DNA from: Bacteroidia bacterium
GTDB taxonomy: Bacteria > Bacteroidota > Bacteroidia > AKYH767-A > OLB10
Length of the DNA stretch: 64,000 nucleotides
Reading direction: 5' to 3'
Assembly (NCBI GenBank): GCA_039931675.1
Contig: JBDTRM010000169.1
Location: forward strand, 993 to 64,992
Positions 17,107 to 46,802 of this stretch are shown here, piece by piece (within the stretch, counting starts at the first letter, position 1; each line of letters opens with the position of its first letter). Below the pieces are notes generated by a model, which saw only the letters and a list, made by a program, of their open reading frames with translations, made no database searches and was not told the DNA's origin. A program made the position numbers and the translations under genes.

Positions 17107-17124
17107 TCATAAATTGTGCATAAA

Positions 17125-17161
17125 TAAAAAATCCCGTTCATAATTGGACGGGATTTTTTAT
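17125..17161. terminator. Bidirectional terminator
   Basis: AAAAAATCCCGT/ACGGGATTTTTT hairpin between convergent genes. Confidence 0.7.
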
Positions 17162-17214
17162 GCTTGTTAATTGTAGAAAAACTACCACAACAATATTCTT
17201 TTGGCAGCAACTTT

Positions 17215-19266: not shown

Positions 19267-19366
19267 GATTTTAATGGGGATAATATTGAAATTACTTTTG
19301 AAGCAGCTAAAGTATTTCAAGCTATTCAAAACAGTAGTTAATGGTTGTTAATTAACTGAAAAATTG

Positions 19367-25936: not shown

Positions 25937-26197
25937 AAATTAAACCACCTTAAAATCAATCACTTACATCCTTAAGATTCTTTTTACTTGACAAGTGCAT
26001 TTTTACACCATTATATTTAGCCAACAATTATAAAACCCAAAATAAAAGCGACCCTTAATTTTAAAAACCAGATAACTGCCTACAGCCATCGTTATTAATC
26101 ACTCCAGATACTAAAGCGTAACCATTACGGCAGGTCATTCAACAGTTTTTTAAATTAACACTTCAGGGGTTGTTTGCTTAACCGTCAACGCTGCTTT

Positions 26198-26434
26198 ATG
26201 TCAGACGAAAACCGCGAAAAGTATTTAGACATCATTAACACCATTGGCGCAGCCAAAGTGGATGAACTTTATAACAAGCTCGGCACTGAGAGAATCAGCA
26301 TGGCCACGCTTAAAAAAATAATAGCGCAAAATTATATTGATGGTGCTCTCAGAGCAAAGAGATCAGTGGCAAATGTTGCTGCCGACCGCGGTGTGTCGCG
26401 CCTGACTGTTTATCGGGTTATTCATAAAAAGTAA
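26198..26434 (+). CDS. Small helix-turn-helix protein (resolvase/Hin-type C-terminal HTH)
   Basis: 78 aa from ATG 26198. C-terminal AADRGVSRLTVYRVIHKK is a typical HTH recognition-helix pattern. Confidence 0.6.
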   Translation: MSDENREKYLDIINTIGAAKVDELYNKLGTERISMATLKKIIAQNYIDGALRAKRSVANVAADRGVSRLTVYRVIHKK

Positions 26435-26491: not shown

Positions 26492-27235
26492 ATGTCCGAA
26501 GAAAAATTAAAAATTGTAATTGATATAGTAAAATGGATTATCGGATCTGTGGTGCTTGTAATAGTTACCACAATTATTGATACAGGTTTCAAGGAGCGCG
26601 AAATGGCTATTAAAGAGATGGCGAAGTTTGACTCGTATATTGACATGGTTACTTCTGCTGATAAACTTGTAGAGCGAAAACGGTTGGCGCAGTTTTTCAA
26701 AACTATGACCATTTCCAAAGATGTGCAGGCGCGATGGAGCGATTATTATGAAATTGTGAGTAAAGAATACGATGATACCCTTGCTGTAAGAGTTGCAAAA
26801 CAAGACACGCTTAATTTATTGCTCAAAAAACCCATGAAGAATGAAACCGACTCACAAAAAATTCAACAGATTCAGCAGGATATTAATGGATTAAATTATC
26901 AGCTTATTTCCAACATCAGCCCTACCAATGCTGTACAGATTAAAAATATAAACATTGCTACAGCCCATGAACAGGTAGGTTATGAAGCACTGAAAGATGG
27001 CGACTTTAAAACCGCTGCCGATAATTTTAAAGCTGCCGAGGATAATTATCCAACGCTACATAACAACTATGAACTATCAAGACTGCTTGCTAAAAAATCG
27101 GATGAGTTGAGCAAAGCTGTTACTGAAGAAGAGAAACAAAATATACTCGCTGCAACCTATGATACCATCCTGAAAAATTACACCTATAAGATGCCTCTTG
27201 ATGTTAAACAAAATTTAAAAAGAAAAATAAAATAA
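26492..27235 (+). CDS. Membrane-anchored hypothetical protein (N-terminal TM, helical/TPR-like C-terminal half)
   Basis: 247 aa. TM segment WIIGSVVLVIVTTIIDTGF. No family recognised. Confidence 0.65.
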   Translation: MSEEKLKIVIDIVKWIIGSVVLVIVTTIIDTGFKEREMAIKEMAKFDSYIDMVTSADKLVERKRLAQFFKTMTISKDVQARWSDYYEIVSKEYDDTLAVRVAKQDTLNLLLKKPMKNETDSQKIQQIQQDINGLNYQLISNISPTNAVQIKNINIATAHEQVGYEALKDGDFKTAADNFKAAEDNYPTLHNNYELSRLLAKKSDELSKAVTEEEKQNILAATYDTILKNYTYKMPLDVKQNLKRKIK

Positions 27236-27269
27236 ACGGGGGAAGCCGAAAATCCGAACAAGAGTAGGC
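27236..27269 (+). promoter_or_regulatory. Conserved 34-nt leader motif, copy A (function unknown)
   Basis: ACGGGGGAAGCCGAAAATCCGAACAAGAGTAGGC. Starts right after the preceding stop codon and ends 16 nt before ATG 27286. Confidence 0.55.
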
Positions 27270-27285
27270 AACAAAATTATTCAAA

Positions 27286-27783
27286 ATGACAGAAGCAGAT
27301 CGTAACAAACGCAACACAACTAAGCTCGCTGAGCTTTATCCCACTTTCAAAGCACGACTGATGAGAGTAATTCAAAAATTAGAAGCTTCAGGCCTGCGTC
27401 CCCGCATACAGGATGCATGGCGGTCGCCACAGGACCAGTTAAACGCCTTTAACACCGGCCACTCCAAGCTCAAATTCGGTTTTCATAATGTAACCGGTGC
27501 TGATGGTGTGAGCAAAGAATCGCTCGCAGTTGACATGCTGGACGATGATCACCCGCTCAACTCAGCCTTACCCTATTTATTGCAATTGGCAGCAGCAGCC
27601 GAAGCAAACGGATTAGCCACAGGCATACGCTGGGGGTTACCCGTTGATATGCGCACAGCAATAGATAATGCGATAGCTGCAAAAAACTGGACTGCTCCAG
27701 TCAAAATAGGTTGGGATCCAACGCATGTTGAGCCGGCAGGAATGACAGCAGCCCAGGCAAAAACGGGAGCGAGGCCGGCTTAA
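27286..27783 (+). CDS. M15-family (VanY/endolysin-like) zinc D,D- or L,D-peptidase
   Basis: 165 aa. RIQDAWRSPQDQ, FGFHNV...SLAVDM and WDPTHVE fit the M15 H-D-H zinc ligand layout. Noticeably more G+C-rich than its neighbours by eye. Confidence 0.7.
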   Translation: MTEADRNKRNTTKLAELYPTFKARLMRVIQKLEASGLRPRIQDAWRSPQDQLNAFNTGHSKLKFGFHNVTGADGVSKESLAVDMLDDDHPLNSALPYLLQLAAAAEANGLATGIRWGLPVDMRTAIDNAIAAKNWTAPVKIGWDPTHVEPAGMTAAQAKTGARPA

Positions 27784-27855
27784 AGGCATTTCCGGAAATT
27801 CAATTTGTTTCGTGAATAATGAAATAAGTTTTTTTATTAAAGTTTAAGATTGTAG

Positions 27856-27893
27856 CAAAAATGAAAAAAATGATATAAACATGTTTTTCATTT
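27856..27893. promoter_or_regulatory. Inverted repeat AAATGAAAAA / TTTTTCATTT related to the boxes at 28461 and 34903
   Basis: 10-bp arms at 27859-27868 and 27884-27893. The right arm contains TTCATTTG, which partly resembles the Bacteroidetes -7 promoter box TAnnTTTG. Confidence 0.4.
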
Positions 27894-28051
27894 GGCAACG
27901 GAATAACGATGGAAAACGCTTCCGGTTTTATTTAAAAGTTACAAAATGACAAACCGGATTCATTTCAATTAATGCCACATTCTTTACAATACTGCTGGAT
28001 TCTAATTCGTGATTGACATCGCTTATGCAACAGGGTAAATTTGATTTAACA

Positions 28052-28389
28052 TAATCACCTATGCTATATACAATCCATAAAGTGTTATTCCTTCTGTCAT
28101 TATTGCAAATAGCAAATCATAAGGTGATAATAACACTATCGCTTTTGTTATTCCCAAATCATATTATGTTTTCCTCGATGCCAATGTTGCTAAGTACAAA
28201 TTACATTGTCTTATTCTCGCTGCCAACATTGATAGGCACAAATTACATTGTGTTATCCTCACAGTCAATCTTGCTTAGCACAAAATCAGTCATGTTGTTG
28301 ATTCAGGCAGTTTTGCTAAACGCATTTTCCCGGCTGTTAAGCTCTCACAGTACTTTACAAAGCAGGCTTGCAGAATTGATATAGCCTCT
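28052..28389. repeat. Degenerate tandem array, about 8 units of 42 bp
   Basis: Units start at 28052, 28094, 28136, 28178, 28220, 28262 (44 bp), 28306 and 28348. The best pair (28178 vs 28220) matches at 33 of 42 positions, with core ACAAATTACATTGTNTTATYCTC. Confidence 0.6.
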
Positions 28390-28460
28390 TCCATTTTTGT
28401 CATAGTCAATCATTAACCTGTTCCATAATTCTCAAAGTAAAATCATTCAAAAAAAATATG

Positions 28461-28509
28461 TTAATGTCACAAAAATGAAAGTTTTGTTACAAATTATGAT
28501 TTTCATTTG
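28461..28509. promoter_or_regulatory. 21-nt box TTAATGTCACAAAAATGAAAG plus inverted partner TTTCATTTG
   Basis: The box is identical to 34903-34923. AAATGAAA (28473-28480) pairs with TTTCATTT (28501-28508). Lies 24 nt upstream of leader motif B. Confidence 0.45.
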
Positions 28510-28532
28510 ACTGATAATAAATAACAATATAA

Positions 28533-28566
28533 ACGGAGCTAGCCGAAAATCCGTGGAAGAGTAGGC
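28533..28566 (+). promoter_or_regulatory. Conserved 34-nt leader motif, copy B
   Basis: ACGGAGCTAGCCGAAAATCCGTGGAAGAGTAGGC. Ends 22 nt before ATG 28589. Confidence 0.55.
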
Positions 28567-28588
28567 TGTTAAATTAAATGAATAAAAA

Positions 28589-29995
28589 ATGTTATTTAAT
28601 TGGATTGATGAAAAATTAGGGCCAAGAAATCTGATTAATAAAGATTCCGAAAAGGTTACTTATGTTCAGATAATGGGATTTATTTTAATAGGATTTGGTG
28701 TCAGTTACATAATGTTCTTTCAATTCCCTAAAAATGAAGCCAGTAGTAATGGGATGGCAGCTTCTTTTTTCCTAATAATGCTAGGAATGTCAATGTCTTT
28801 TCCATCTTTACTTAAAGGGCAGACAAAAGATGTTAGCACAATGCGAATAATTGTATTCATGTTTGCTAATGTGATTTGTATGCTGCTTCTTAAAATCGGT
28901 TGGGACAAACATTCATTAAGCGAGATTGGTTTAGACGGTTACTGGATGGGAGTAATTGCATTTCTCTTTGGAGCAAAAGCAACACAAGCATTTTTTGAAA
29001 ATGCAGACAAATTTTTTTCAAAGAAGCAAATCACTCCCCAAGAGATTTTAAGTGAAACAGTAGAAAAGAAAGACTTGGATATTAGTCAAATTGCAATTGC
29101 ACAGTTGGCAAAGATTCAAAATGAGAGTAAGTTACAAACTAAATTCCCAAATATAGTTTCTGTTAGCGATACCTTATTAGGAGGCAAATGCTGTCTGACT
29201 TTATATCTTGAAGACAATAACGGGAAAAATATTCCTGAATTTGTAACGGCAGAAATAAATGAAAAAACAAAAGTTCAAGTAAGAATCGAAGTAATTACCG
29301 ATTCGCCAGCAGCAATAACTCATATTGGTCAAGCAACTGATGAATTGAGTGATTCTGATAACCCAGAAGGGTTTGCTTCATTTTGCGCTTTACTTTCTAA
29401 TACAGATAATATAGATTTAAAATTTTTAGCAACTGCAGGCCATAATTTTACAAATGGTAACTTCAAGAGTATGGGAGGATTTATTTTTGATGATGAACAA
29501 AGAGCTGTTTTTATTAATGGAAAAACTAGAGGTTCTTTATTCTATCAACGAATGCACTTTACACAAGATTTGGCTATAGTAAAATTAAGCCAAACAGATA
29601 GTTTGCTAGAGAATTATATTTCTTTCAATAGTGGTTACAAAGAACTAAGTACTAACGATGTTAAAACTAAAGTTCCAAATGTCACCATCGCATCAAGGAA
29701 AAATATTAATAGAAATGGTTCAAATATTCATGATGCATTTGTACTGGATATTAATATTCCTTTTGATGTCATGTATAATGGTGAAAAGAGGCGACTTCAA
29801 AATGTGATTTTATTAGGAGACACTAATGAACCCGACAAATCTAAAGAAGTTTCAATGCGGGGTGATTCTGGAAGTCCTGTTTATTGCAACCAAACTAAAA
29901 AACTTATTGGTATTTTGATTGGAGGGAATGGAAAATTCTCCTTTGTATTACCACTAAAAGATGTACTAGAAACAAACAACTTTAAATTAATATAA
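28589..29995 (+). CDS. Membrane-anchored trypsin-like (S1/chymotrypsin-fold) serine protease
   Basis: 468 aa. Four N-terminal TM segments. Catalytic triad context TAGHNF (His), DLAIVKL (Asp), GDSGSPVY (Ser). Confidence 0.85.
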   Translation: MLFNWIDEKLGPRNLINKDSEKVTYVQIMGFILIGFGVSYIMFFQFPKNEASSNGMAASFFLIMLGMSMSFPSLLKGQTKDVSTMRIIVFMFANVICMLLLKIGWDKHSLSEIGLDGYWMGVIAFLFGAKATQAFFENADKFFSKKQITPQEILSETVEKKDLDISQIAIAQLAKIQNESKLQTKFPNIVSVSDTLLGGKCCLTLYLEDNNGKNIPEFVTAEINEKTKVQVRIEVITDSPAAITHIGQATDELSDSDNPEGFASFCALLSNTDNIDLKFLATAGHNFTNGNFKSMGGFIFDDEQRAVFINGKTRGSLFYQRMHFTQDLAIVKLSQTDSLLENYISFNSGYKELSTNDVKTKVPNVTIASRKNINRNGSNIHDAFVLDINIPFDVMYNGEKRRLQNVILLGDTNEPDKSKEVSMRGDSGSPVYCNQTKKLIGILIGGNGKFSFVLPLKDVLETNNFKLI

Positions 29996-29997
29996 GA

Positions 29998-32475
29998 ATG
30001 AAAACTCTATTTACAACAATTCTACTTGCGTTAGCAAGTTATGCCTTCGCTCAAACTGGGAAGGAAATTTACCTTAAATGGGATAATAACGAATTAAAGA
30101 TTGAACGCGGAGATACATCAAGTATTGAACTTCCCTTCGCTTTAAGATTCAAAGAAGCAAATTTTAAGAACAAGGAACTTAAATGGAAAAATGGCAATAC
30201 TGTAATCCCCGGAACTACTAAAAAATTCGGGACAGATATTAAATTAACCCTTGAAGATAATGGGTATTACAAAATTATTATGGAAATTAATGAAGGAAAA
30301 GTTGTTTCCAGCATCCTTGGTGAAACTAATCTTCCAAACAGTTCCATTACTCTTGAAATATCAGGAAAGTCAATCACATTTAATTATAAGGGGGGTAAAA
30401 AAGAAGAGCGTGATACAGGTGATAAGAATAAAGAAAATGAAGTAAAATATACCGCTGGATATATTTACTATGATGCAATGGCATTGGTTTCAAATAAACT
30501 TTCGCCAAAAGATAAACTCGAAATTTTAGAAAGCTATGGTTACAAAGGATCTGAAAACAATCCCTATTTAAAAGGCATATTTGATGAAGAAAATGTAAAG
30601 GCTGGTGCACATGTATCGTTGAGTCCGGGTGCCTTGTTAACCAATATCGGCAACACCGATGTAACCAATTTCGCAGCAGGTTTAGCAAGGTTTCTTGCTG
30701 AAAGAACAAAGGAAGAATTGAACGAAGCATTTTTCAAAAAGATGAAAGAGCAATTGAATGCTTATCCCGAATTAAAAACTGCTTTCCCAACAACCGCCTC
30801 TTTCTTAGATATTATTGAAACCTACTCTTACGCATCGGTTATTCAGGTTTTGAAAGAAGCATTTGAAACGGATATTCAGAATTTGCCTGAGAATTTATAT
30901 AGCATAAAAAATTTGACTTCCGCTGCGTGTAATGAAAACCTCATTTGTGGCAAAAATATTAAAGGAGAAGACAAAAAGGATTGTGATAAATATAAAGACT
31001 GTACATTAAGACTTACTAATTTGGAAAATTTTTTCAAAACAATGGAGGGGCATTGGGTGGCTTTAGGCATGTTCTCACTTAAAGAAGGAATTCAATCAAC
31101 TAATCCTGCCGAGTTATTAAAATCTATTGCTTCATCAACAGAATTTGATAATCTTAAAACGGCATCTGCAAAGTTGAAGCTTTATAATGATTATAACATT
31201 ACTTCTTCCATTGAATTGAGTAATCTTATTTCGCAAAGTTTAGTTAGTAATGAAGTTAATCAGGTTTGGATTTCTACAAATCAAATCAATTCTTTATTCA
31301 ACACCAAAGACGCATTTAAAATTTACTTAGGACTTCTCTTGGCAAAAGAACTTAAAGGGGATACTAAAGTTGAATTTTATGACTCATCTCCAAAACTTGT
31401 TTCATTCGGAAAAATTTTATCGGATAGATATCAAACTTACACAGAGTTTGAAGGTTTAATTAAAAATATCTTCTCAGCATATAATGCTACAAACAATGCT
31501 GTAAAGAAAATGCTTGCTGCATCTGAAAAATCAGTTGAAGCAGACCCACAAGCACTTTATGACTATTATAGAACCTTTACATCATCCTTAAAACCAATTG
31601 CGCATAGTCCATTATTGAAAACAATAACTGGTAAAGACATTGGTGCAGGGTACGACAAAGTAGAACAATTTTTAAATCCTGCCGTTGATATTGCGTATCA
31701 CATTTCTACAAAAAAATATTCTGCTGCAATTTATGATGCATCAATTCTTTTGAGTGCTTTAAACGAGCTTAAAGTAACAACGACAGATGAAAAAGGAAAA
31801 GTAGTAGAAGAAAAATATGATGGCTTTAAGATAGTCACAAAATCTTTTCTGAAATATGGAACCCTGATTTCAACAGTTGCAAATGCTCAAACATCTGAAG
31901 AAGTGAAAAAGGCAATTGAAGCATCCGTATTGCCGGTTGGAAGTTCTTCAATCAAAAGAAACTCTAATTTCAGTATTTCCGTCAATGCTTACGTAGGTGG
32001 GTTTTATGGTAGAGCATATACCCATGAGATGGAATACAAATACGATTCTCTCATGAATCCCATTGATACAAATCGAATTAAAAAAAATTATCAAACTTTT
32101 GGATTGTATGCTCCCATCGGAGTTTCATTCAATAAAGGCTCTAAATGTGGCTGGGGAGTTAGTGTAACAGCCCAACTATTGGATTTGGGTGCACTTGTAA
32201 ACTTTTATTTAACTGAAGGGGATCAAACTGCCCTTCCTGATGATTTCAAAATTAGATTATCAAATATCTTTGCTCCGGGTGTGCAGTTAGGCATTAATAT
32301 TCCGAAGACCCCTCTTACATTAACGGGTGGATTCCAATATGTTCCGGCATTATACCAGACAGACCAGATATCTTCTTCATCAGAAATTATTGCATCCAAT
32401 GCAGTACGATGGCACATTGGATTGGTGGTTGATATTCCTTTGTATAATGTAAAAGTTTGGGATTTTAAGAAATAA
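29998..32475 (+). CDS. Large secreted hypothetical protein (helical core, beta-rich possibly membrane-embedded C-terminus)
   Basis: 825 aa. Signal peptide MKTLFTTILLALASYAFAQ. 2-nt gap from the protease gene. No family recognised. Confidence 0.8.
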   Translation: MKTLFTTILLALASYAFAQTGKEIYLKWDNNELKIERGDTSSIELPFALRFKEANFKNKELKWKNGNTVIPGTTKKFGTDIKLTLEDNGYYKIIMEINEGKVVSSILGETNLPNSSITLEISGKSITFNYKGGKKEERDTGDKNKENEVKYTAGYIYYDAMALVSNKLSPKDKLEILESYGYKGSENNPYLKGIFDEENVKAGAHVSLSPGALLTNIGNTDVTNFAAGLARFLAERTKEELNEAFFKKMKEQLNAYPELKTAFPTTASFLDIIETYSYASVIQVLKEAFETDIQNLPENLYSIKNLTSAACNENLICGKNIKGEDKKDCDKYKDCTLRLTNLENFFKTMEGHWVALGMFSLKEGIQSTNPAELLKSIASSTEFDNLKTASAKLKLYNDYNITSSIELSNLISQSLVSNEVNQVWISTNQINSLFNTKDAFKIYLGLLLAKELKGDTKVEFYDSSPKLVSFGKILSDRYQTYTEFEGLIKNIFSAYNATNNAVKKMLAASEKSVEADPQALYDYYRTFTSSLKPIAHSPLLKTITGKDIGAGYDKVEQFLNPAVDIAYHISTKKYSAAIYDASILLSALNELKVTTTDEKGKVVEEKYDGFKIVTKSFLKYGTLISTVANAQTSEEVKKAIEASVLPVGSSSIKRNSNFSISVNAYVGGFYGRAYTHEMEYKYDSLMNPIDTNRIKKNYQTFGLYAPIGVSFNKGSKCGWGVSVTAQLLDLGALVNFYLTEGDQTALPDDFKIRLSNIFAPGVQLGINIPKTPLTLTGGFQYVPALYQTDQISSSSEIIASNAVRWHIGLVVDIPLYNVKVWDFKK

Positions 32476-32699
32476 CGATTACGCTATATTTTATTTGATG
32501 GAGTTTAATTACGATATCATTAAAAATATTGGATAAAAAGTTTTAATACCAGGCAGTATAATAAATTCATTTGTAAAATAAATAAATTGAATACGCTGAA
32601 ATCTTTCAACGGATGTAATGCTATCTTTTAGTAAATTAGTAATTATATTATTTCAAATTGTATTGTTTTAAGAATACAATATCTTAAATTTTCAATATC

Positions 32700-33308
32700 A
32701 TGATTTTACTACAGGATACCTTATCATCTTTTGCCAATCTACCCGACATTCTTAAGTTCGGATTAGTTGGATTAAGTGCAATTGTACTAATCCTCGCATA
32801 CAATTTACTTTCTAAAGAACAGTCGCGAACTGGCGCTGCTCGCGAAAACATTCTGAAAACAATTAAAACATACATGTGGATTGCCTTGGCTTTTTTAATT
32901 GTTTCTGGAATTTGGTCAGTTATTGATAAGTTAATTTCAAAACCGCCTGCAACTGATCTTGCTAAGCAGGAGAGCCCCGTCATTAAAAACTGCAATAAAA
33001 ACTTTGTATTGAACTTTTCTCTCGATCCTGATTTGACTGAATTAATCACAGATAGCGACTCCCTCGAATTGCAATACAGGGTTAGACGTACTGAAACTAA
33101 ATTGAAAACAGTTCCTGTTGAAAGAGCCAAAGGACAGGGGTTCACAGCCTTTATTGATAGTCTTGACAATGATGATATTTACGAGGTTAAACTTATTAAT
33201 AGAACAAAAAAGATATTTTGGGAAAATACTGATGCGGTTTCGGTCAACTATACCTTTACTAAACTCATTCATTCTCCGGAGGATAAGTTAAAAAATTCAA
33301 TTCAATGA
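32700..33308 (+). CDS. Two-TM membrane protein with beta-rich C-terminal domain
   Basis: 202 aa. TMs FGLVGLSAIVLILAYNLL and YMWIALAFLIVSGIWSVI. Its stop overlaps the next start (ATGA at 33305-33308). Confidence 0.7.
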   Translation: MILLQDTLSSFANLPDILKFGLVGLSAIVLILAYNLLSKEQSRTGAARENILKTIKTYMWIALAFLIVSGIWSVIDKLISKPPATDLAKQESPVIKNCNKNFVLNFSLDPDLTELITDSDSLELQYRVRRTETKLKTVPVERAKGQGFTAFIDSLDNDDIYEVKLINRTKKIFWENTDAVSVNYTFTKLIHSPEDKLKNSIQ

Positions 33309-34261
33309 AAAAAAATATTTTACTATTAATATTCTTCACTTTCATAGTCTTTGCAGCAAATTCTCAAATGCGTTTTGCTGAAAAATCTCAGGATGTTTTA
33401 TTTAATGTTCAAACTACCAGCTATTCCAATGGCGTGACTAGATGGGATGTCACTGTTGATAGCAATGACAATCAGTATGATAGCATAGTAGCTATAGAGT
33501 ATAATCTCGATGGACTATTATTTAAAAATCCTGTAAGGAAAAGCGTTAACCCTAAGAATAATTTTCTGCTTACAACTTTTCACACAGTCGAAAGTAATAT
33601 TGAAGCCGTTGTCCATTTTAAAAATGGCGATGTCAGTAAAACAAAAGTACTTCTGAGCATTAACTCACAATCAACATTGCAGATTAATAATACGGCTAAA
33701 CAAATCAAATCTGGTCTTTGGGAATGGGAAGCATTTCTAACAGGCAATGCCCAAGAAATTAATAATGTGGATTACATCATTTATCAGCTACATCCTACAT
33801 TTAAAGAGCCTTATCAGAAGATTGATAAACGTGGCGATTTAAATAAAGCTTTTGCGCTAAGTGCAAAGGGCTGGGGTATTTTTATACTCAAGGCAACTGT
33901 TTACTTTAAGGATGGAAAAACAATATCACTTCGGCACGTTCTTAAATTTAATACCATAAAAGTTGATGTTTTTTACCTTGAAAGTACTCAATCCACATCA
34001 CATACATCAGCGGAAAAAATTGCACAGATTATTAGTAACAATAGCGATTTTAAAGCCTCCCCTAGGTTACTTACCGATATTATTAACGCTGGTGAAGGTT
34101 ATCGCCTTTCTGAAAATCAGATAAGGTATAACATTCTCGAAAATGATTATGTTACAACCATAATCAAAATGCTAAGTAAGGAAGGAGTAAATTCCACTTT
34201 TAAAAAGAATTTAATTTCTTACGATACACCTGAGTATATTTCAATATTTATTGTCAGGTAG
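33305..34261 (+). CDS. Exported protein with two tandem prokaryotic-YEATS-like domains plus an unknown C-terminal domain
   Basis: 318 aa. Signal peptide MKKNILLLIFFTFIVFAANSQ. The second repeat, WEWEAFLTG...VDYIIYQLHPTFKEPYQ...SAKGWGIFILKATVYFKDGKTISLRHVLKF, follows the YEATS pattern (W.W..., V.F.LH.SF..P, G(W/Y).GF, v.F...). The first repeat is weaker (RWDVTVDS...VAIEYNLDGLLFKNP...). Confidence 0.7.
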   Translation: MKKNILLLIFFTFIVFAANSQMRFAEKSQDVLFNVQTTSYSNGVTRWDVTVDSNDNQYDSIVAIEYNLDGLLFKNPVRKSVNPKNNFLLTTFHTVESNIEAVVHFKNGDVSKTKVLLSINSQSTLQINNTAKQIKSGLWEWEAFLTGNAQEINNVDYIIYQLHPTFKEPYQKIDKRGDLNKAFALSAKGWGIFILKATVYFKDGKTISLRHVLKFNTIKVDVFYLESTQSTSHTSAEKIAQIISNNSDFKASPRLLTDIINAGEGYRLSENQIRYNILENDYVTTIIKMLSKEGVNSTFKKNLISYDTPEYISIFIVR

Positions 34262-34397
34262 TTTCCTCTGTTTGTTGCTTTCCTTATTCCTTTCAAACAG
34301 CCTTCCCCTTTCTCACATTTTAATTCCCAAACTATTCTCATTCAAAATTTAAAACTTACTTAGCAGGTTGAAAATGTAAAACAGCATCCCAATAAGT

Positions 34398-34733
34398 ATG
34401 AATGACAATACAACCCTTGAAGCAGTATCAAAACAAAAGAAACCTGCCAAACCCAAAAAACAATCCTCAATAGAAGAAACCCTCTGGGACAGCGCCAACA
34501 AACTCCGTGGCTCTGTTGAATCATCCTAATACAAGCACGTAGTGCTGGGTTTGATATTCCTCAAGTTTGCGAGTGATAAATTTGAAGAACGCAAAAAAGA
34601 ATTGATTGCCGAAGGCAAAGAAAAGTATATGGACATGGTAGAATTCTACACCATGCGCAACGTATTTTATTTGGCCGACATTTCGCGGTGGAGTTACCTC
34701 ATTGATAATGCCAAGCAGGCCGACCTCGCTTAA
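34398..34733 (+). pseudogene. hsdM: Type I R-M methyltransferase (hsdM) N-terminal remnant, with in-frame stop and 3' truncation
   Basis: The translation ...[44 protein letters not shown]... is the canonical HsdM N-terminal domain. TAA at 34527-34529 replaces the usual Glu of SEYKHV. The frame ends at 34733 after about 110 codons, far short of a full HsdM. Confidence 0.8.
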
Positions 34734-34821
34734 AGTTGTTTCTATTTATGGGTAGAAACCCTCTTTATTTTTTGCTCAATCTTCATCCTTACAACAATCC
34801 ACTCCCCTCTGTTTCTGGTCT

Positions 34822-34846
34822 GAGAGAGAGAGAGAGAGAGAGAGAG
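34822..34846. repeat. (GA)12 dinucleotide microsatellite
   Basis: GAGAGAGAGAGAGAGAGAGAGAGAG read directly. Confidence 0.95.
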
Positions 34847-34902
34847 GTTGGGGATGTGTCAATTTCACTCTGATATTTCAAGGCATACTCCTCCAAAACA
34901 TT

Positions 34903-34923
34903 TTAATGTCACAAAAATGAAAG
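34903..34923. promoter_or_regulatory. Second copy of the 21-nt box TTAATGTCACAAAAATGAAAG
   Basis: Identical 21-mer to 28461-28481, followed by the small palindrome TGAAAGCTCTCTTTCA. Confidence 0.45.
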
Positions 34924-35254
34924 CTCTCTTTCAAATCATCCCTTTTCACTCGCTAAATTTATTAATAAAAACAATTGTTGTCCCTCTTCTCTCAATTTGC
35001 GTGAGTCACACAAGCCTCTGCCCCCAAAATTGGGAGTATATGTCTTATTGCTTTTGATTATGATCTTCCTTCTATGTTTTTTTTGAGGAGAGTTTTTAAG
35101 ATATAATAAAGTCAAAACCAATTTGGCACTCAAAATACCCACCCGCATTCCCTCAAAATATTACCGTGTTCTTTTCTGAATAACCACTTTCCAATTTACG
35201 ATTGACTTGGCTCGTAACCTACTGTATGTTTGATCTCAATTACGAATAAAAAAC

Positions 35255-35288
35255 ACGGAGTTAGCCGAAAATCCACTAAAGAGTAGGC
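35255..35288 (+). promoter_or_regulatory. Conserved 34-nt leader motif, copy C
   Basis: ACGGAGTTAGCCGAAAATCCACTAAAGAGTAGGC. Ends 18 nt before ATG 35307. Confidence 0.55.
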
Positions 35289-35306
35289 AATAAAAAAATA
35301 AATGCC

Positions 35307-36098
35307 ATGAAAAGAATTAATTTTTATGTGTTTCTCCTGTTACTTTTATCTATTGCCTGTCATGATAAAGATGTGTCTGTTCCCGCAGCCAATAAAAACA
35401 CAATTGAAAACACATTCGATATTCCCGTTAAAATTAAAGGCACGCCTTTTCTCTCAATTCAACTGCTGCAAAAAACCTCTTATGATGTTGCTAACAGCTT
35501 TTATTACACAACCATCACTTTAAAAGTGATTAACACGTCCTCTTATTATTTGGATTCAGTAAAATATGAAGTGCTGTTTTTTAACGATAGCATCAAATCA
35601 TATTTAAATCTGGTAACCCGGTTTATAGGCACTGCTACCAATCTCGCTCCTGGCGGATTCACTGGTTACATTGATTTTTATGCAGGTCGGATAACAAATA
35701 TTACATCTGATTTTTTCGAAGCGGTAGTTATTAAACCCTATGCTTCAGGTTTATCCGCAAGCAATTTTTCGGGCGCCTGCTCAGGAAACTATACATTGTT
35801 TTCAGGTTATACTGATACCCATAAATCAGATGATCTTTCTTTTGGATATGTAGATGCGGGGGGAAGCTTAAAAATCTATATGAATCACGACTCAAACAAT
35901 CTGATTTTTAAAGCAATCATTGATGACGATGGTATAGCCTATGGAAAGCTATACGACTACTATAATGATCCCATTGAATTTAATAACGCTGCCGATCCCA
36001 TTCTAGGCTCTTCAAATGATTTTACTATCAACTTCAAAACCGATATTAACAATCCCGATAGTCTTCATATACTCAGGTTTTCATTACAAAAATCTTAA
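35307..36098 (+). CDS. Hypothetical lipoprotein
   Basis: 263 aa. Lipobox LLLLSIACHDK. Beta-rich. No family recognised. Confidence 0.7.
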   Translation: MKRINFYVFLLLLLSIACHDKDVSVPAANKNTIENTFDIPVKIKGTPFLSIQLLQKTSYDVANSFYYTTITLKVINTSSYYLDSVKYEVLFFNDSIKSYLNLVTRFIGTATNLAPGGFTGYIDFYAGRITNITSDFFEAVVIKPYASGLSASNFSGACSGNYTLFSGYTDTHKSDDLSFGYVDAGGSLKIYMNHDSNNLIFKAIIDDDGIAYGKLYDYYNDPIEFNNAADPILGSSNDFTINFKTDINNPDSLHILRFSLQKS

Positions 36099-36110
36099 TA
36101 CACATACACT

Positions 36111-37829
36111 ATGAAATCATTATTTATTAGTATCAGTTGCATAATGATGTTTATCTCCATCGGAGTGATAACAGCAAATGCCCAAAGTGGCTCCTCTCAA
36201 AGCAAATTAATTTACAACACCTTCTATCCCTTAACGGACACTGCAACCGGTAACACGGTAAACCATGAAATTAAGGTGCTCATCAACAACGATGGTTTGT
36301 ACTATTTTCAGCTAATGGATGTAAATGTTCCCGATTCGGCAATTAGCACACTTCAGTTGTCGCAAATGAACTACGGTAAAATTAATAACTGGTTGCAGAA
36401 TAATATTAAACCTGATGACGCCTCCGAAAAAACTAAAGTCGCTGATTTAACCGGCTTATTAATAATTAATACAGCAATAAATAAATTGAATATTGATGAA
36501 GATAGACCGCTTGCAGGCGAGTTTACTTTTAAAGATCAGTTAAAAGTAACATTCCGGGATAATGACAAAAAAGAAAGCCCGGTAAAAAAGGACAGTGTAA
36601 ATAAAGCGCCAGATGCTAAAGATTCCATAAGCAACAAGCAAACAACAACTGCTCACGACAGCCTGCTTACAGTAGAAGATATTGTTTTCGAATTTGACGA
36701 AGGCTTCATAACAACTATTAAGGTTACGGGTAAATTGCTTGGCGAAGAAATTATGTTTATTAATAAATATCCAATAGGGTTTTCAACAATCAGGGATTAT
36801 AATAATATGAGCCAAACGGACTTGTTTGCAGTTCAGGAAGAAGGTATAAAAAGTATTAAATTAGCTGACCTCATAGCACGATATAATCCCGAAATATATC
36901 ATCAGCAGCGTGAATACAATCCCGGTAATGGTGTCGTGGCCTGGACAAAAGAAGATGGCAAAAAATTAAAAGTTTACCACGATAAATCCACCGAGCTTTT
37001 CAAAGCAAAAGTATTCAGCGATTTTGTAGGTTTGGATGAGGCTAAACCTAATGGACTGGTGCAAATTGAAGTGTCAAAGAGATTTAATTTATGGACTAAA
37101 AGACATGGGGTAGGAAAAGAGGATGGATCAAATACAGGTTTCCTGGCATGTATTGAACCCTATGCAGCCATTACTAAAATTGAAGAAAACAATAAGTTCA
37201 TTCCCCTGCAGGAAAAATATTCCATCCAAAACGGGGTGCTGGTGAAAAAATCCTACATCTCCCGGCTCGACTTAATGCAATTTCAGAATTTAAGAACAGG
37301 GTTAGATCAAAATATCTTTTTATGGGATATACCTACATTAAAATCTACTTTTTTAATAAATTTTGGAATTAATCTTATTCGTACAGGAGTTATTGATAGT
37401 GCAAAAATTTTAGACCATAATAATGTTGTCAATACAAATGTGGTAGATAAATTCCAGGTTACATCAGTTTCATTTTATCCTGAATTCTGCTGGCAGATAT
37501 TCACCGATGCACGTATGAGTGCGTTTGCCTCTTACCGCCTCTCAAAATTATTCATGTACAGCGATAAGGTAATGGCCGTAAGCAATATTAAAAAGTTTGA
37601 GCAGGGCGATGAAGAAGAAAAAATTGGATGGATAAGCTCGTTTAATTTTACGCTCACCTTTAAGCCCAATGCAATGACAACAGAAAAGCAAGGCACCAAA
37701 ACAAATAATCCCGATAAAAACGAACTGTTTTTCAGGTTCGGTTATAACCAGATGAATAGCGAAATAAAACGAAACTACTTCCAGGCGCAGGTAGGTTATT
37801 CATTCTTCATTTTTAAGAAAAACAACTGA
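36111..37829 (+). CDS. Hypothetical secreted protein, possibly an outer-membrane beta-barrel
   Basis: 572 aa. Signal peptide ...ISIGVITANAQ. The C-terminal ~200 aa have an alternating pattern ending FFRFGYNQM...YFQAQVGYSFFIF. 12-nt gap from the lipoprotein gene. Confidence 0.7.
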   Translation: MKSLFISISCIMMFISIGVITANAQSGSSQSKLIYNTFYPLTDTATGNTVNHEIKVLINNDGLYYFQLMDVNVPDSAISTLQLSQMNYGKINNWLQNNIKPDDASEKTKVADLTGLLIINTAINKLNIDEDRPLAGEFTFKDQLKVTFRDNDKKESPVKKDSVNKAPDAKDSISNKQTTTAHDSLLTVEDIVFEFDEGFITTIKVTGKLLGEEIMFINKYPIGFSTIRDYNNMSQTDLFAVQEEGIKSIKLADLIARYNPEIYHQQREYNPGNGVVAWTKEDGKKLKVYHDKSTELFKAKVFSDFVGLDEAKPNGLVQIEVSKRFNLWTKRHGVGKEDGSNTGFLACIEPYAAITKIEENNKFIPLQEKYSIQNGVLVKKSYISRLDLMQFQNLRTGLDQNIFLWDIPTLKSTFLINFGINLIRTGVIDSAKILDHNNVVNTNVVDKFQVTSVSFYPEFCWQIFTDARMSAFASYRLSKLFMYSDKVMAVSNIKKFEQGDEEEKIGWISSFNFTLTFKPNAMTTEKQGTKTNNPDKNELFFRFGYNQMNSEIKRNYFQAQVGYSFFIFKKNN

Positions 37830-38139: not shown

Positions 38140-38517
38140 ATGTTCCAAAGCAACCTCCCTTTAAATTGTCCACCAACGGATGCTCATGAAGATGAAAAAT
38201 GGCTTTATCGTATTTTGAAATCCACCTCTGTTTGTGAGGAAGAATTTGAAAATTATGTAACCATATATTCACATAAAGTTGAGTATAAAAAAATGTGCGG
38301 TGCCTACGCCATTTCACTTTATGAATTGAAAGAAAAGGCAATTGAAAATGCAAAAAAGAATCCTGTCATAGGTACGTATATCACAAAGATTTTAATAAAG
38401 CCTCAATACGGAAAACTTCACTGTGGCAATACTAAAACGGGTCATTATAACCTTTGGCTTTACACTACCTTTGACGCTTCTAAAGTTGAACACGAATTAA
38501 TTGAACCAATAGTATGA
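38140..38517 (+). CDS. Small hypothetical protein, first gene of the SNF2/methyltransferase operon
   Basis: 125 aa from ATG 38140 (the ORF track starts at TTG 38131). Its stop overlaps the SNF2 start (ATGA at 38514-38517). No family recognised. Confidence 0.6.
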   Translation: MFQSNLPLNCPPTDAHEDEKWLYRILKSTSVCEEEFENYVTIYSHKVEYKKMCGAYAISLYELKEKAIENAKKNPVIGTYITKILIKPQYGKLHCGNTKTGHYNLWLYTTFDASKVEHELIEPIV

Positions 38518-41500
38518 ATTTACTTGACGATAAATATGCAACATCTTCGCATCATCTCGATTTATTGAGATTGTATGACCTGCTGGATTTTGCAGATTTT
38601 CCTTTCTTGAAAGTAGATTTTGCCTCGAATGGAAAAAAGTTCTTGAATTATTTTGTGGCCCAGTTGGATTCTTATGAGCATCGTTTATTATCGGAGATAC
38701 ACCCTGCCAACCTTTTTCTTGTTGAAGCGGGAATTTTATCTGTGAGAGAAGCATTTAATAAAACAGAAAGTAGTATAGTTTATTCGTGCCTATACGATAA
38801 CGCAGAAAAAATTATAAAGTGTTTTGCTATTCCCATAAATGAATTCATTGCAGCAAATCCAATACCTGATGATTATATTGTTGAACTACCGAAGGAAAAT
38901 AACCATACACACCTTACTCCATATCATGCAAAGTATTATTCGTATGAGTTAACTAAACAAAGTTCTTCTGACAGTGTGGACAAACTTGCATCAGCAATTG
39001 TTGATGCACAGGTTCAATTAAATCCTCACCAGGTTGATGCTGCACTCTTTGCTTTTCAATCACCATTAAGCAAAGGTGTACTCTTAGCCGATGAGGTGGG
39101 TTTAGGTAAAACCATTGAAGCGGGATTGGTTATTTTGCAAAAATGGGCTGAGAGAAAGAGAAAAATATTAATCATTGTTCCTTCTAATTTAAGAAAGCAA
39201 TGGTACCAGGAATTACAGGAAAAATTTTTCCTTGAATCTGTAATTCTTGAAACAAAATCATTCAATTACCAGATTAAAAAACTATCGAACCTTAATCCAT
39301 TTGAACAAAAAGATAAAATAATTATTTGCTCGTATCATTTTGCCAAGTCAAGGGACACTTACATTAAATTAGTTAATTGGGATTTAGTTGTAATGGATGA
39401 AGCGCACCGCTTACGCAACGTATATCGTCCTGATAATAAAATTGGCAATGCAATTAAAAATGCGTTAAGTCATGTGGACAAGAAACTATTGCTTACTGCT
39501 ACTCCGTTGCAAAACACCCTCCTTGAATTATTTGGTTTAGTGAGCTTGATTGATGAAAATATTTTCGGGGATTTGAATAGCTTTAAGAACCAGTATAGCC
39601 ATGTTGTTGAGGGGGAGGAGAATTTTGATGATTTAAAAAACCGCTTATCTACAATCTCCAAGCGAACATTGCGTAGAGATGTACTCCAGTATATACCTTA
39701 TACCGAAAGGCACTCCATAACTGAAGACTTTTATCCTACTGAGCCAGAAGCAGATTTGTATGAAATGGTGAGCGACTATCTAAGTTCTCCTAAATTATAT
39801 GCGCTTCCTGCAAGCCAGCGTCAATTGATGACTTTGATTTTACGCAAACTTCTTGCCTCATCTACTTTTGCTATTTCAGGCACATTAAAAGCATTTGCCG
39901 ATAGGTTAGATGGATTAATCAGCCTGAATGCAAAGGCTAATGAAAATTTAGAAAAGGAAATTATAGAGAATTACGAAGGTTATGATGAAGCAAAAGAAGA
40001 GTGGGAAGAAGAGGAAGAAGAATCTAATGAAATAACAAATATAAAACCCAAACCCAAAAACAGTTTCACTCCTGAAGAATTAATTGACGTAAAAAAAGAA
40101 CTTGCTGATTTAAGAAAATTTCAGGCATTGGCTGAAGAGATACGTGAAAATTCAAAAGGCAATAAATTAATGATTGCTCTCAAAAAAGGATTTGAAAAAT
40201 TACAGGAAAAAGCAAATAAAAAAGCTATCATTTTTACAGAGTCAACCCGCACCCAACAATATCTTTTTGAAATTTTAAGCCAAACAGAATATGCGGGTAA
40301 AATTGTTTTATTTAACGGAACAAATAATGATGAGCAATCAAAAAAAATCTATCGGGACTGGTTGGATAAAAATAAAGGAACTGATAAAGTTACAGGAAGC
40401 GCAACGGCAGATAAGCGTTCTGCATTGGTAGAATACTTTAGGGATGAAGCAGAATTAATGATTGCTACCGAAGCTGCTGCCGAAGGTATCAACTTACAGT
40501 TTTGTTCTTTAGTAGTTAATTATGATTTACCTTGGAACCCGCAACGCATTGAACAACGGATAGGGCGATGTCATCGTTATGGTCAAAAATATGATGTAGT
40601 GGTGGTGAACTTTTTAAACAAAGGTAATGAAGCCGACCAGCGGGTATATGACATTTTAAAATTCAAGTTTCAATTATTTGATGGTGTTTTCGGAGCAAGC
40701 GATGAAGTGCTCGGAGCCATTGGTTCAGGGGTTGATTTTGAAAAGCGTATTGCAGAAATTTATAAGAACTACCGAAGCCCCGAAACCATTCAATTAGAAT
40801 TTGATTTTCTACAGGAACAGTACAAAACAGAAATTGATACAGAGGTTGGCAGAGCACGACAGAGCCTGTTGGAAAATTTTGATGCGGAAGTAAACGAAAA
40901 ACTAAAAATTCAAAGTGAGAACACGTTGAATAAATACGAAGAATGGTTGTGGTCGTTGAGCGCTTTCTTTTTAAAACCTTATGCTGAAATTGATAATGCC
41001 AATAAATGGTTCCTGTTAAAAGAAAATCCGTTTAAAGATTTAGACATTAATGAAGGACCTTATCGCCTTGCGAAAAATGTAGAGGATGCAAACACGTATC
41101 GCTTACAGCATCCGTTAGCGGAAAACATTATTGCAGTTTGCAAGCAAATGGAAATGGAAGAAAAAGAATTAACTTTCCATTACCAGGGCATTCCGAAAAT
41201 GACAGTGATTGAAAATCTTCGCGGACAAACAGGTTGGCTTACGGGCATCAATTACAATATAAAAACAGCCGAAGAGCAGGATTATGTTTTGCTTACTGCC
41301 CAGTGTGATGATGGCACTTTGTTAGACATTGACATTTGCCGTAAACTTTTTACACTTCCCGCTACGGAGAGTGCCGTTAACTATCCTTTTGAAGAATCTA
41401 AAAAAGAAACACTTTCGAAATTGAAAATGCAGTTAGATAGCTTGAAGGCTGAAATTACAAGTGAGATTGAATTGAAAAACGTTGGCTTCTATAAAATTGA

Positions 41501-43873: not shown

Positions 43874-43874
43874 T

Positions 43875-46796: not shown

Positions 46797-46802
46797 TAGC
46801 AA

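What the first reader, a model, noticed from the sequence alone, without database searches (positions are those of the whole stretch)
27236..35288. Identical-length 34-nt motif placed 16-22 nt upstream of three start codons in the island
SEEN: the three copies are A 27236-27269 ACGGGGGAAGCCGAAAATCCGAACAAGAGTAGGC, B 28533-28566 ACGGAGCTAGCCGAAAATCCGTGGAAGAGTAGGC and C 35255-35288 ACGGAGTTAGCCGAAAATCCACTAAAGAGTAGGC. Invariant blocks are ACGG, AGCCGAAAATCC and AAGAGTAGGC, about 27 of 34 positions. All three are on the + strand, just before the first gene of a module (M15 peptidase, protease operon, lipoprotein/OMP pair). All the products are envelope-directed. I did not see the core GCCGAAAATCC or its complement elsewhere in the window. 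It does not resemble the Bacteroidetes TTTG/TAnnTTTG housekeeping promoter. Only a 3-bp GGA/TCC pairing is common to all copies, so there is little covariation support for an RNA fold. INFERENCE: this may be a dedicated promoter (for example for an alternative or ECF sigma factor), an operator, or a translational leader that co-regulates otherwise unrelated island modules. Alternatively it may be a cassette-boundary signature left by modular gene acquisition.
Basis: seen in the sequence. Interest (0 to 1): 0.7.

Follow-up and report, generated by a model that had tools for sequence, protein, structure and literature searches.

The report
Known DUF805b pseudoknot RNA leaders
The three 34-nt repeats are copies of an already catalogued Bacteroidota RNA leader (Rfam DUF805b), a small pseudoknot that sits about 20 nt upstream of start codons of many unrelated accessory genes; its function has not been tested experimentally.

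Summary
Three 34-nt copies lie at 27236, 28533 and 35255 on the + strand, 27/34 positions are identical, and they end 16, 22 and 18 nt before an ATG. The pattern gives 0 matches in shuffled sequence.

The motif is not new. All three match Rfam RF02914 (DUF805b RNA, cis-regulatory) at 39.0, 34.0 and 40.5 bits; the gathering score is 35.6.

I collected 126 instances, 3 from the window and 123 from 118 loci, about 95% of them Bacteroidota. They show strong Watson-Crick covariation for a 4-bp hairpin and a 3-bp pseudoknot. G·U outnumbers A·C 19 to 1, so this is a sense-strand RNA fold and not a promoter or operator.

The knot ends a median 22 nt (IQR 19-24) before the start codon. The linker is an A/U-rich, unstructured, standard Bacteroidetes initiation region. 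In some cases a normal TAnnTTTG promoter box lies just upstream.

Downstream genes are very diverse: 51 Pfam families in 119 proteins, including outer-membrane proteins, T9SS cargo, small Cys-rich peptides, rhodopsins and phage regulators. Seven homologues of one window gene have no knot directly upstream.

My best reading is a modular leader that acts on translation initiation. A small-molecule or second-messenger riboswitch is not excluded. Novelty: already known. Interest is low to moderate.

The parts
27236..27269 (+). DUF805b pseudoknot copy A. P1 pairs 27237-27240 with 27253-27256. P2 (the pseudoknot) pairs 27245-27247 with 27267-27269. It starts directly after the TAA stop (27233-27235) of ORF 26492-27235, so it may be internal to a transcript.
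   Evidence: Rfam RF02914 at 39.0 bits, above the gathering score of 35.6. Own model R1 scores 48.8 bits. Sequence.
27270..27285 (+). 16-nt A/U-rich linker between copy A and the ATG at 27286.
27286..27783 (+). Downstream ORF of copy A: 165 aa, no signal peptide, weak endolysin-like similarity only.
   Evidence: phrog_465 E=8.7e-5, phrog_2649 E=2.3e-4.
28502..28509 (+). TTCATTTG, a near match to the Bacteroidetes -7 promoter box TAnnTTTG, 23 nt upstream of copy B. Inferred promoter; it would put the transcript start about 15-20 nt before the knot.
   Evidence: Family-wide enrichment of such boxes.
28533..28566 (+). DUF805b pseudoknot copy B. P1 pairs 28534-28537 with 28550-28553. P2 pairs 28542-28544 with 28564-28566.
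   Evidence: Rfam RF02914 at 34.0 bits, 1.6 bits below the gathering score, E=1e-6. R1 scores 41.8 bits. All invariant nucleotides are present and both helices can form.
28567..28588 (+). 22-nt A/U-rich linker between copy B and the ATG at 28589.
28589..32475 (+). Genes downstream of copy B: a 468-aa protein with an N-terminal membrane segment and a weak trypsin-like C-terminus (28589-29995), then an 825-aa protein 2 nt later (29998-32475).
35225..35232 (+). TATGTTTG, an exact TAnnTTTG -7 box 22 nt upstream of copy C (inferred promoter).
   Evidence: It overlaps the sigma-70-like hit at 35202-35230.
35255..35288 (+). DUF805b pseudoknot copy C. P1 pairs 35256-35259 with 35272-35275; its outermost pair is a C·A mismatch. 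P2 pairs 35264-35266 with 35286-35288.
   Evidence: Rfam RF02914 at 40.5 bits. R1 scores 50.0 bits.
35289..35306 (+). 18-nt A-rich linker between copy C and the ATG at 35307.
35307..37829 (+). Genes downstream of copy C: a 263-aa predicted lipoprotein (35307-36098) and a 572-aa protein (36111-37829). Neither has a family match.

Best explanation
Shown: the three repeats are members of the known RNA family DUF805b (Rfam RF02914). Each is transcribed as part of the 5' leader of the gene that follows. Each can fold into a 34-nt H-type pseudoknot. Stem P1 pairs positions 2-5 with 18-21. Stem P2 pairs positions 10-12 with 32-34. The loop nucleotides GAAAA (13-17) and AGAGUA (26-31) were fixed by my search pattern, so their conservation rests on the independent Rfam consensus and on pattern-independent copies.

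Inferred: the knot is a modular, gene-independent leader that acts in cis on translation initiation of the next ORF. It sits at the 5' edge of the unstructured, A-rich initiation region that Bacteroidota ribosomes use in place of a Shine-Dalgarno site. The folded knot is probably stabilised by a partner, such as the 30S platform or protein bS1, another protein, or a small ligand. In that state it would set how efficiently the 30S subunit loads. Because the same leader precedes three unrelated modules in this region, they would receive the same post-transcriptional input.

My confidence that this is DUF805b RNA with this fold is about 0.97. My confidence that it works at translation initiation is about 0.5. 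The direction of the effect (activating or repressing) and the partner are not known.
For: Identity:
- cmscan hits to RF02914 for all three copies.
- All DUF805b matches reported in 18 other loci reach the gathering score.

Fold, from 126 instances:
- 93% of pair cells form standard pairs, against 75% in shuffles (0 of 500 shuffles reach this).
- The covariation score is 0.421, against 0.096 in shuffles and 0.07 or less when the partners are slid.
- Pair 5/18: AU 59, CG 37, GC 11, UA 7. Pair 10/34: GC 51, UA 21, CG 18, AU 15, GU 12.
- Both of these pairs lie outside the search pattern, so they are free of ascertainment bias.
- Copies found independently of the pattern show compensatory GUC/GAC and GCU/AGC in P2.
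- G·U/U·G outnumber A·C/C·A 19 to 1 at these two pairs, which points to the sense-strand RNA.

Position:
- The distance from the 3' end of the knot to the ATG has a median of 22 nt, IQR 19-24, in 119 of 126 instances.
- By contrast, the distance from an upstream TAnnTTTG box to the knot varies from 6 to 28 nt.
- The linker is 83% A+U. It has A peaks at -3 (63%) and at -11 to -14 (59-74%). This matches the F. johnsoniae initiation signature in PMC6847099.
- These A peaks are stronger than in 622 control ORFs from the same loci.
- Larger spacers are mostly filled by a hairpin or a second mini-knot.

Modularity:
- 119 downstream proteins hit 51 Pfam families.
- 111 viral contigs carry the motif, in front of regulators, an HNH endonuclease and small ORFs.
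- Seven homologues of gene B (46-76% identity) have no knot directly upstream.
- There is no alternative pairing between the knot and the initiation region: mean z = -0.01 +/- 0.10.

Background: Bacteroidia ribosomes do not use Shine-Dalgarno pairing (PMC13000453; PMC6847099).
Against: - There is no experimental datum for this family. I found no functional study.
- The two stems alone are weak: P1 is -1.7 to -3.7 kcal/mol and P2 is -2.0 kcal/mol. The fold therefore needs tertiary contacts or a partner, which fits a ligand-sensing aptamer equally well.
- A fixed distance to the start codon could simply reflect compact 5' UTRs.
- Copy A, and the Pedobacter arrays, lie inside operons. In one phage cluster the knot lies 105-116 nt from the next ORF, followed by three hairpins. 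Spacing is therefore not universal.
- My 126 instances were collected with a pattern that fixes 17 positions, so the invariance of those positions is not independently shown here. It rests on the Rfam consensus and on about 14 pattern-independent copies.
Confidence: 0.55

Rival explanations
1. A classical riboswitch. The 34-nt pseudoknot is an aptamer for a small molecule or ion, most plausibly a global signal such as a second messenger or alarmone. Ligand binding locks the knot and changes expression of the downstream gene.
For: - The loop nucleotides are highly conserved across a phylum, according to the Rfam consensus and the pattern-independent copies.
- The helices are marginally stable and would need a partner to fold.
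- The size and topology resemble small pseudoknot aptamers such as preQ1-I, SAM-II and guanidine-III (my own knowledge).
- A few loci carry tandem knots: L015, L047, L072 and L102.
- The heterogeneous, surface-biased and phage-borne gene set resembles that of c-di-GMP riboswitches (my own knowledge).
Against: - There is no coherent metabolic or transport theme: 51 Pfam families in 119 proteins.
- I detected no expression platform. There is no mutually exclusive pairing with the initiation region, and no regular terminator follows the knot.
- Homologues of gene B have no knot directly upstream, unlike the tight link between aptamer and gene family seen in most riboswitch classes.
- Rfam types the family only as 'Cis-reg'.
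Confidence: 0.25
2. An mRNA stability or processing element. The knot at or near the 5' end protects the downstream message from 5'-end-dependent decay, or marks a processing site inside operons. This would raise the level of the following cistron.
For: - Promoter -7 boxes lie 6-28 nt upstream, so the knot is near the 5' end of many transcripts.
- Each gene in tandem small-peptide arrays has its own knot: L002, L031 and L059.
- Copy A is intercistronic.
Against: - The distance to the transcript start is variable, whereas the distance to the start codon is tight.
- A protective structure would be expected to be thermodynamically stable, and this one is weak.
- Strict conservation of 11 loop nucleotides is not needed for a simple roadblock.
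Confidence: 0.1
3. A DNA-level signal. This would be a promoter for an alternative or ECF sigma factor, or an operator for a DNA-binding regulator such as the HTH protein encoded at 26174-26434.
For: - The motif is upstream of genes, always on the coding strand.
- Its 34-nt length could hold -35 and -10 elements.
- An HTH gene is nearby.
Against: - The variable positions covary as antiparallel Watson-Crick pairs in an interleaved (pseudoknot) arrangement.
- G·U is tolerated and A·C avoided, 19 to 1. That asymmetry has meaning only for RNA of the + strand.
- Ordinary -7 boxes lie upstream of the motif.
- Copy A abuts a stop codon inside a likely operon.
- The motif spans the whole phylum and its phages, whereas the HTH gene is local.
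Confidence: 0.03
4. A cassette-boundary or recombination scar left by modular gene acquisition, with no function of its own.
For: - The copies sit in a variable region rich in orphan and defence genes.
- Multiple copies cluster in accessory regions of other genomes as well.
Against: - The flanks of the three copies share nothing beyond the 34 nt.
- Compensatory base changes show selection on an RNA fold.
- The position relative to the start codon is fixed.
- The Pfam scans of the region found no integrase or recombinase next to the copies.
Confidence: 0.02

Closest known systems
DUF805b RNA motif (Rfam RF02914, clan CL00115). From my own knowledge it was reported among the 224 candidate structured RNAs of Weinberg et al. 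2017, NAR 45:10811. The main text held here does not name it and the supplement is not held.
   Same: The consensus is the same 35 nt, AAGGcGGAAgCCGAAAAgCCUuAAaAGAGUAGGcA. The hairpin, the phylum and the position upstream of protein-coding genes on the same strand are also the same. Copies A and C exceed the curated threshold. Copy B misses it by 1.6 bits.
   Different: Nothing essential differs. None of the three window genes encodes a DUF805 protein, and only 2 of the 119 sampled downstream proteins do. Positions 2/21 and 5/18 in the window copies (C-G and A-U or G-U) differ from the Rfam consensus (A-U and C-G) in a compensatory way.
Small H-type pseudoknot riboswitch aptamers (preQ1-I, SAM-II, guanidine-III, fluoride).
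   Same: The length is about 34 nt. There are two short interleaved helices, conserved loop nucleotides, marginal stability without a partner, and a location in 5' leaders.
   Different: There was no Rfam match to any of these families, even at E<=0.5. The loop sequences are different. There is no Shine-Dalgarno sequence or start codon inside the knot, no detectable expression platform and no coherent gene function.
Structured 5'-leader elements that engage the 30S platform or protein S1. Examples are the rpsO pseudoknot, standby sites such as tisB (PMC7708055), and S1 binding to the preQ1 pseudoknot (PMC7038950).
   Same: A pseudoknot lies just upstream of the ribosome-binding region, with an effect expected at 30S loading.
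   Different: Those elements are gene-specific and occur in Shine-Dalgarno-using bacteria. This one is a portable module found before hundreds of unrelated genes in a phylum whose ribosomes ignore Shine-Dalgarno sequences. No binding to the ribosome has been shown.

Membership tests
DUF805b RNA (Rfam RF02914) | Score at or above the curated gathering threshold (35.6 bits) with the Rfam covariance model | tested here: met
   Copy C scores 40.5 bits and copy A 39.0 bits. Copy B scores 34.0 bits, E=1e-6, which is 1.6 bits short. It aligns end to end (model positions 1-35) with all conserved residues present.
DUF805b RNA (Rfam RF02914) | A 4-bp hairpin (positions 2-5 with 18-21) enclosing a 12-nt loop that contains CCGAAAA | tested here: met
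   Shown in the alignments. Pair 5/18 covaries in 126 instances (AU 59, CG 37, GC 11, UA 7). Copy C has one C·A mismatch at pair 2/21.
DUF805b RNA (Rfam RF02914) | A conserved 3' tail AGAGUAGG whose GGN pairs with NCC of the loop to form a pseudoknot | tested here: met
   Pair 10/34 is GC 51, UA 21, CG 18, AU 15, GU 12 and other 9. Compensatory GUC/GAC and GCU/AGC variants occur in P2. The Rfam covariance model itself encodes only the hairpin.
DUF805b RNA (Rfam RF02914) | Lies in Bacteroidota, upstream of and co-oriented with a protein-coding gene | tested here: met
   The window encodes T9SS sorting-domain proteins. About 114 of the 120 genome loci are titled Bacteroidota. An ATG-initiated ORF of at least 40 aa follows on the same strand in 119 of 126 instances.
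Metabolite-binding riboswitch (generic) | An expression platform with structures that are mutually exclusive with the aptamer (a terminator or sequestration of the initiation region) | tested here: not met
   Duplex energies between the knot and the initiation region equal those of shuffles (mean z = -0.01). The initiation region is unstructured at -1.3 kcal/mol. No regular terminator follows the knot.
Metabolite-binding riboswitch (generic) | Downstream genes share a pathway or transport function linked to one ligand | tested here: not met
   51 Pfam families in 119 proteins, with the largest class at 6 members. Phage copies precede regulators and nucleases. Homologues of gene B have no knot directly upstream.
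Metabolite-binding riboswitch (generic) | Direct, selective ligand binding by the RNA | not testable with these tools
   This needs in-line probing, ITC or a structure.
Bacteroidetes primary-sigma promoter (-33 TTTG / -7 TAnnTTTG) | The motif itself carries the -7 and -33 boxes | tested here: not met
   There is no TTTG within the 34 nt. Such boxes lie upstream of the motif instead. A strict box occurs within 30 nt upstream in 10 of 125 instances, against a background of 1.9.
Shine-Dalgarno sequence or mimic | Selection for GGAGG complementary to the 16S 3' end | tested here: not met
   GGAGG occurs at positions 3-7 in 17 of 126 instances, against 20.3 expected from the column frequencies. Position 5 covaries with position 18.
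preQ1-I and other catalogued pseudoknot riboswitches | A match to the family covariance model | tested here: not met
   At E<=1 over 27000-35500 and E<=0.5 over the whole window, the only matches at the three motif sites were to DUF805b and its clan.

The most novel reading that the evidence does not exclude
The DUF805b pseudoknot may be a portable ribosome-recruitment or translation-control module specific to Bacteroidota. It would be a structured substitute for the Shine-Dalgarno interaction, docking on the 30S platform or bS1 about 20 nt upstream of the start codon. Accessory genes, bacteriocin-like peptide genes and phages of this phylum would use it to obtain or gate efficient translation.
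Probability: 0.2. Interest if true: 0.8.

Novelty: already known. Interest (0 to 1): 0.3.

Why it matters
The family itself remains an orphan, and I found no published function. Bacteroidota ribosomes ignore Shine-Dalgarno sequences, and it is unclear how particular mRNAs are favoured in this phylum. That makes it a concrete, testable candidate for mRNA-specific translational control. If it proves to boost expression it could also be useful in Bacteroides or Flavobacterium expression constructs.

Tried and rejected
- **Literature.** Searches for DUF805b, DUF805 motif and RF02914 gave only machine-learning or benchmark papers. RF02913 turned out to be pemK, not DUF805. A search for pseudoknot plus Bacteroidetes translation gave background only. 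A full-text search for the motif sequence gave only unrelated primer hits.
- **Weinberg 2017.** The supplement is not held and the main text does not name the motif.
- **Helix extensions.** The possible extra pairs 1/22, 9/35 and 8/36 are mostly unpaired, so I rejected them.
- **Shine-Dalgarno mimicry.** I rejected this for the 5' AAGGAGG seen in some copies.
- **Anti-knot pairing.** I found no alternative pairing with the initiation region.
- **Terminator after the knot.** L073 and L113 carry stable hairpins but no U-run, so they are not a regular platform.
- **Sibling Rfam family DUF805.** It was never the best hit in 18 loci, so I could not compare it directly.
- **Window genes.** The exact-sequence look-up of gene B found nothing on record. 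PDB, Pfam, NCBIfam and PADLOC searches of the knot-led genes gave essentially nothing.
- **Compositional island.** GC is 34.9% in the region against 35.6% for the window, so there is no compositional signal.

Full report
**Observation.** They are identical at 27 of 34 positions. They end 16, 22 and 18 nt before the ATG codons at 27286, 28589 and 35307. The gapped pattern with up to three mismatches finds only these three sites, against none in 100 shuffles. The 11-nt core occurs nowhere else in the window apart from one chance-level 1-mismatch site.

**Identity.** A scan of the window against Rfam 15 returns two hits above the curated threshold, both at these coordinates: RF02914, 'DUF805b RNA', type Cis-reg, clan CL00115. 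With an E-value threshold the third copy is found too. The scores are 40.5, 39.0 and 34.0 bits against a gathering score of 35.6, and each copy aligns end to end to the 35-nt consensus AAGGcGGAAgCCGAAAAgCCUuAAaAGAGUAGGcA. No further copy exists in the window at E<=0.5. So the motif is a catalogued RNA family. From my own knowledge it comes from the Weinberg et al. 2017 survey of 224 candidate RNAs. The held main text does not name it and the supplement is not held. I found no paper that tests its function.

**Structure.**
- I scanned one genome per species with CCGAAAANCCNNNNNAGAGTAGG. About 114 are titled as Bacteroidota of all classes. The rest are FCB-group relatives, MAGs labelled otherwise, or two gammaproteobacterial isolates.
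- Together with the window this gives 126 instances, aligned without gaps.
- For a 4-bp hairpin P1 (2-5 with 18-21) plus a 3-bp pseudoknot P2 (10-12 with 32-34), 93% of cells are standard pairs, against 75% in shuffles (0 of 500 reach this). The covariation score is 0.421, against 0.096 in shuffles and 0.07 or less when the partners are slid.
- The two pairs that the search pattern did not constrain are decisive. Pair 5/18 is AU 59, CG 37, GC 11, UA 7, GU/UG 7 and unpaired 5. Pair 10/34 is GC 51, UA 21, CG 18, AU 15, GU 12 and unpaired 9.
- A covariance model built from the alignment found about 14 further copies in the flanks that are independent of the pattern. Among them are GUC...GAC and GCU...AGC variants, which are compensatory changes at the other two P2 pairs.
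- At pairs 5/18 and 10/34, G·U/U·G occur 19 times and A·C/C·A once. That asymmetry makes sense only for RNA of the + strand.
- Extending either helix is not supported.

**Anatomy around the knot.**
- The distance from the 3' end of the knot to the first ATG that opens an ORF of at least 40 aa has a median of 22 nt, IQR 19-24 (119 of 126 instances).
- The linker is 83% A+U and 6% G. It has A peaks at -3 (63%) and at -11 to -14 (59-74%).
- This is the initiation-region signature described for Flavobacterium johnsoniae: A at -3, -6, -12 and -13, with low structure from -20 to +20 (PMC6847099).
- The signature is stronger here than in 622 control ORFs from the same loci.
- Upstream, a strict TAnnTTTG -7 box lies within 30 nt in 10 of 125 instances, against 1.9 +/- 1.4 at random positions. 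Its distance to the knot ranges from 6 to 28 nt.
- In the window, copy C has an exact box (TATGTTTG, 35225-35232) and copy B a near match (TTCATTTG, 28502-28509). Copy A begins directly after the stop codon of ORF 26492-27235 and so is probably internal to a transcript.
- The knot is therefore transcribed. Its distance to the transcript start is loose and its distance to the start codon is tight.
- Where the distance to the ATG is longer (48-51 nt and more), the extra sequence is usually a hairpin (Pedobacter small-peptide genes) or a second, shorter knot in tandem (L015, L047, L072, L102).

**What it precedes.**
- The 119 downstream proteins hit 51 Pfam families: outer-membrane beta-barrels (6 and 5), T9SS sorting-domain proteins (5), DUF6520 (3), and 2 each of rhodopsins, DUF805, phage tail-collar and TM2. 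Single cases include proteases, HU, aegerolysin and PixA.
- About half have a signal-peptide-like N-terminus. 40% are 120 aa or shorter, including double-glycine-leader and Cys-rich peptides.
- The motif also occurs in 111 IMG/VR viral contigs. There it precedes transcriptional regulators, an HNH endonuclease, an exonuclease and small unknown ORFs.
- Seven metagenomic homologues of window gene B (46-76% identity) have no knot directly upstream. In the four whose upstream sequence I read (L232, L233, L234 and L238), the homologue starts about 10-20 nt after the preceding stop codon. L238 carries two knots, but in front of other small secreted proteins.
- The knot is therefore a portable leader and is not tied to a protein family.
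- In the window it heads three orphan modules inside a variable region that also holds a pYEATS protein and a DrmD-like helicase, methylase and type III restriction cluster. GC content is not unusual.

**Mechanism.**
- What is shown: a sense-strand RNA pseudoknot with strongly conserved loops lies at the 5' edge of a canonical, unstructured initiation region, independent of gene function.
- What I tested and did not find:
  - No pairing between the knot and the initiation region beyond chance (mean z = -0.01 +/- 0.10).
  - No regular terminator after the knot.
  - No selection for a Shine-Dalgarno-like GGAGG (17 observed, 20 expected).
- The helices alone are weak (-1.7 to -3.7 and -2.0 kcal/mol). 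Stable folding must therefore rely on tertiary contacts or a partner.
- My best inference, at about 0.5, is that the folded knot acts on 30S loading at the adjacent start site. In this phylum Shine-Dalgarno pairing is not used (PMC13000453), and the A-rich -11 to -14 tract has been proposed to contact bS1 (PMC6847099). S1 is known to bind small leader pseudoknots (PMC7038950).
- The main rival, at about 0.25, is a riboswitch for a global signal. Conserved loops, marginal stability and occasional tandem copies fit it. The lack of a platform and of any functional theme argue against it.
- A 5' stabiliser or processing element is less likely (about 0.1). A DNA-level promoter or operator (0.03) and a cassette scar (0.02) are contradicted by the covariation.

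**Comparison and novelty.** The copies meet every testable defining feature of DUF805b, so they are members of it. Copy B is just under the curated score. They resemble small pseudoknot aptamers in size and topology, but they match none of those models and lack a platform. The element class is already known. I cannot say whether the original supplement already noted these points.

**Limits.** My instance set was gathered with a pattern that fixes 17 positions. There are no expression or binding data. Start codons are inferred from ORFs. Organism names are taken from record titles.

Noticed in passing
window 38514-47624: Defence-type gene cluster: a DrmD-like SNF2 helicase (38514-41810; PADLOC DrmD E=3e-194), an N6/N4 DNA methylase (41810-43873), a type III restriction enzyme (43875-46796; E=2.8e-299) and a HipA-like kinase (46803-47624). 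It lies directly downstream of the knot-led modules.
   Followed up: partly
window 33305-34261: A 318-aa protein with a prokaryotic YEATS domain (PF20305, E=4.5e-23) in the same orphan-gene region, after a 202-aa ORF whose stop overlaps its start.
   Followed up: no
window 1131-3845, 4328-7117, 55406-56671: Large proteins with a Peptidase_S74 (endosialidase chaperone, tail-fibre-like) domain. Two of them also carry a T9SS C-terminal sorting domain.
   Followed up: no
L123-L231, e.g. L131:6552-6700: In a cluster of roughly 55-108-kb viral contigs, most from one IMG sample (3300045988), whose only close GenBank phage match came from human faeces, the DUF805b knot is followed by three conserved hairpins. 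The last is terminator-like and shows compensatory changes between two subfamilies. Only then comes a 50-51-aa ORF, 105-116 nt downstream. This may be a longer structured leader or a small RNA.
   Followed up: partly
L131:6474-6506: An extended Shine-Dalgarno-like sequence (AAAGGAGGTGAGATC) sits directly before an ATG-AAA-TAA mini-ORF in a phage contig that also carries the Bacteroidota-type DUF805b knot. This is odd if its host's ribosomes ignore Shine-Dalgarno sequences.
   Followed up: no
L015, L047, L072, L102 (e.g. L072:5406-5443 on the - strand, and the 30 nt after it): Tandem arrangement: a full knot is immediately followed by a shorter variant (3-bp P1, 8-nt L3, e.g. AGUGUAAGCCGAAAAACUUAAGAGUAGGC). 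In L015, L047 and L072 the next ORF resembles an outer-membrane beta-barrel protein.
   Followed up: partly
L002, L031, L059, L067 (Pedobacter): Arrays of 2-4 tandem genes for 81-87-aa Cys-containing peptides (MA.WY...CAIY...). Each has its own knot plus a conserved AAAGUUUUU element and an A/U hairpin before the ATG (spacer 48-51 nt).
   Followed up: partly
L063 (Glaciecola amylolytica CP034120.1) and L099 (Dyella koreensis): Motif matches in genomes titled as Gammaproteobacteria. L063 has both helices and an ATG 22 nt downstream. These could be horizontal transfer, mislabelling or chance.
   Followed up: no
window 17107-17223: Weak sub-threshold Thr_leader matches on both strands (30 and 28 bits against a gathering score of 55, E 0.12-0.33), just downstream of the - strand M13 peptidase gene (17215-19329), whose 3' end they overlap. 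Probably a palindromic terminator and not a leader.
   Followed up: no
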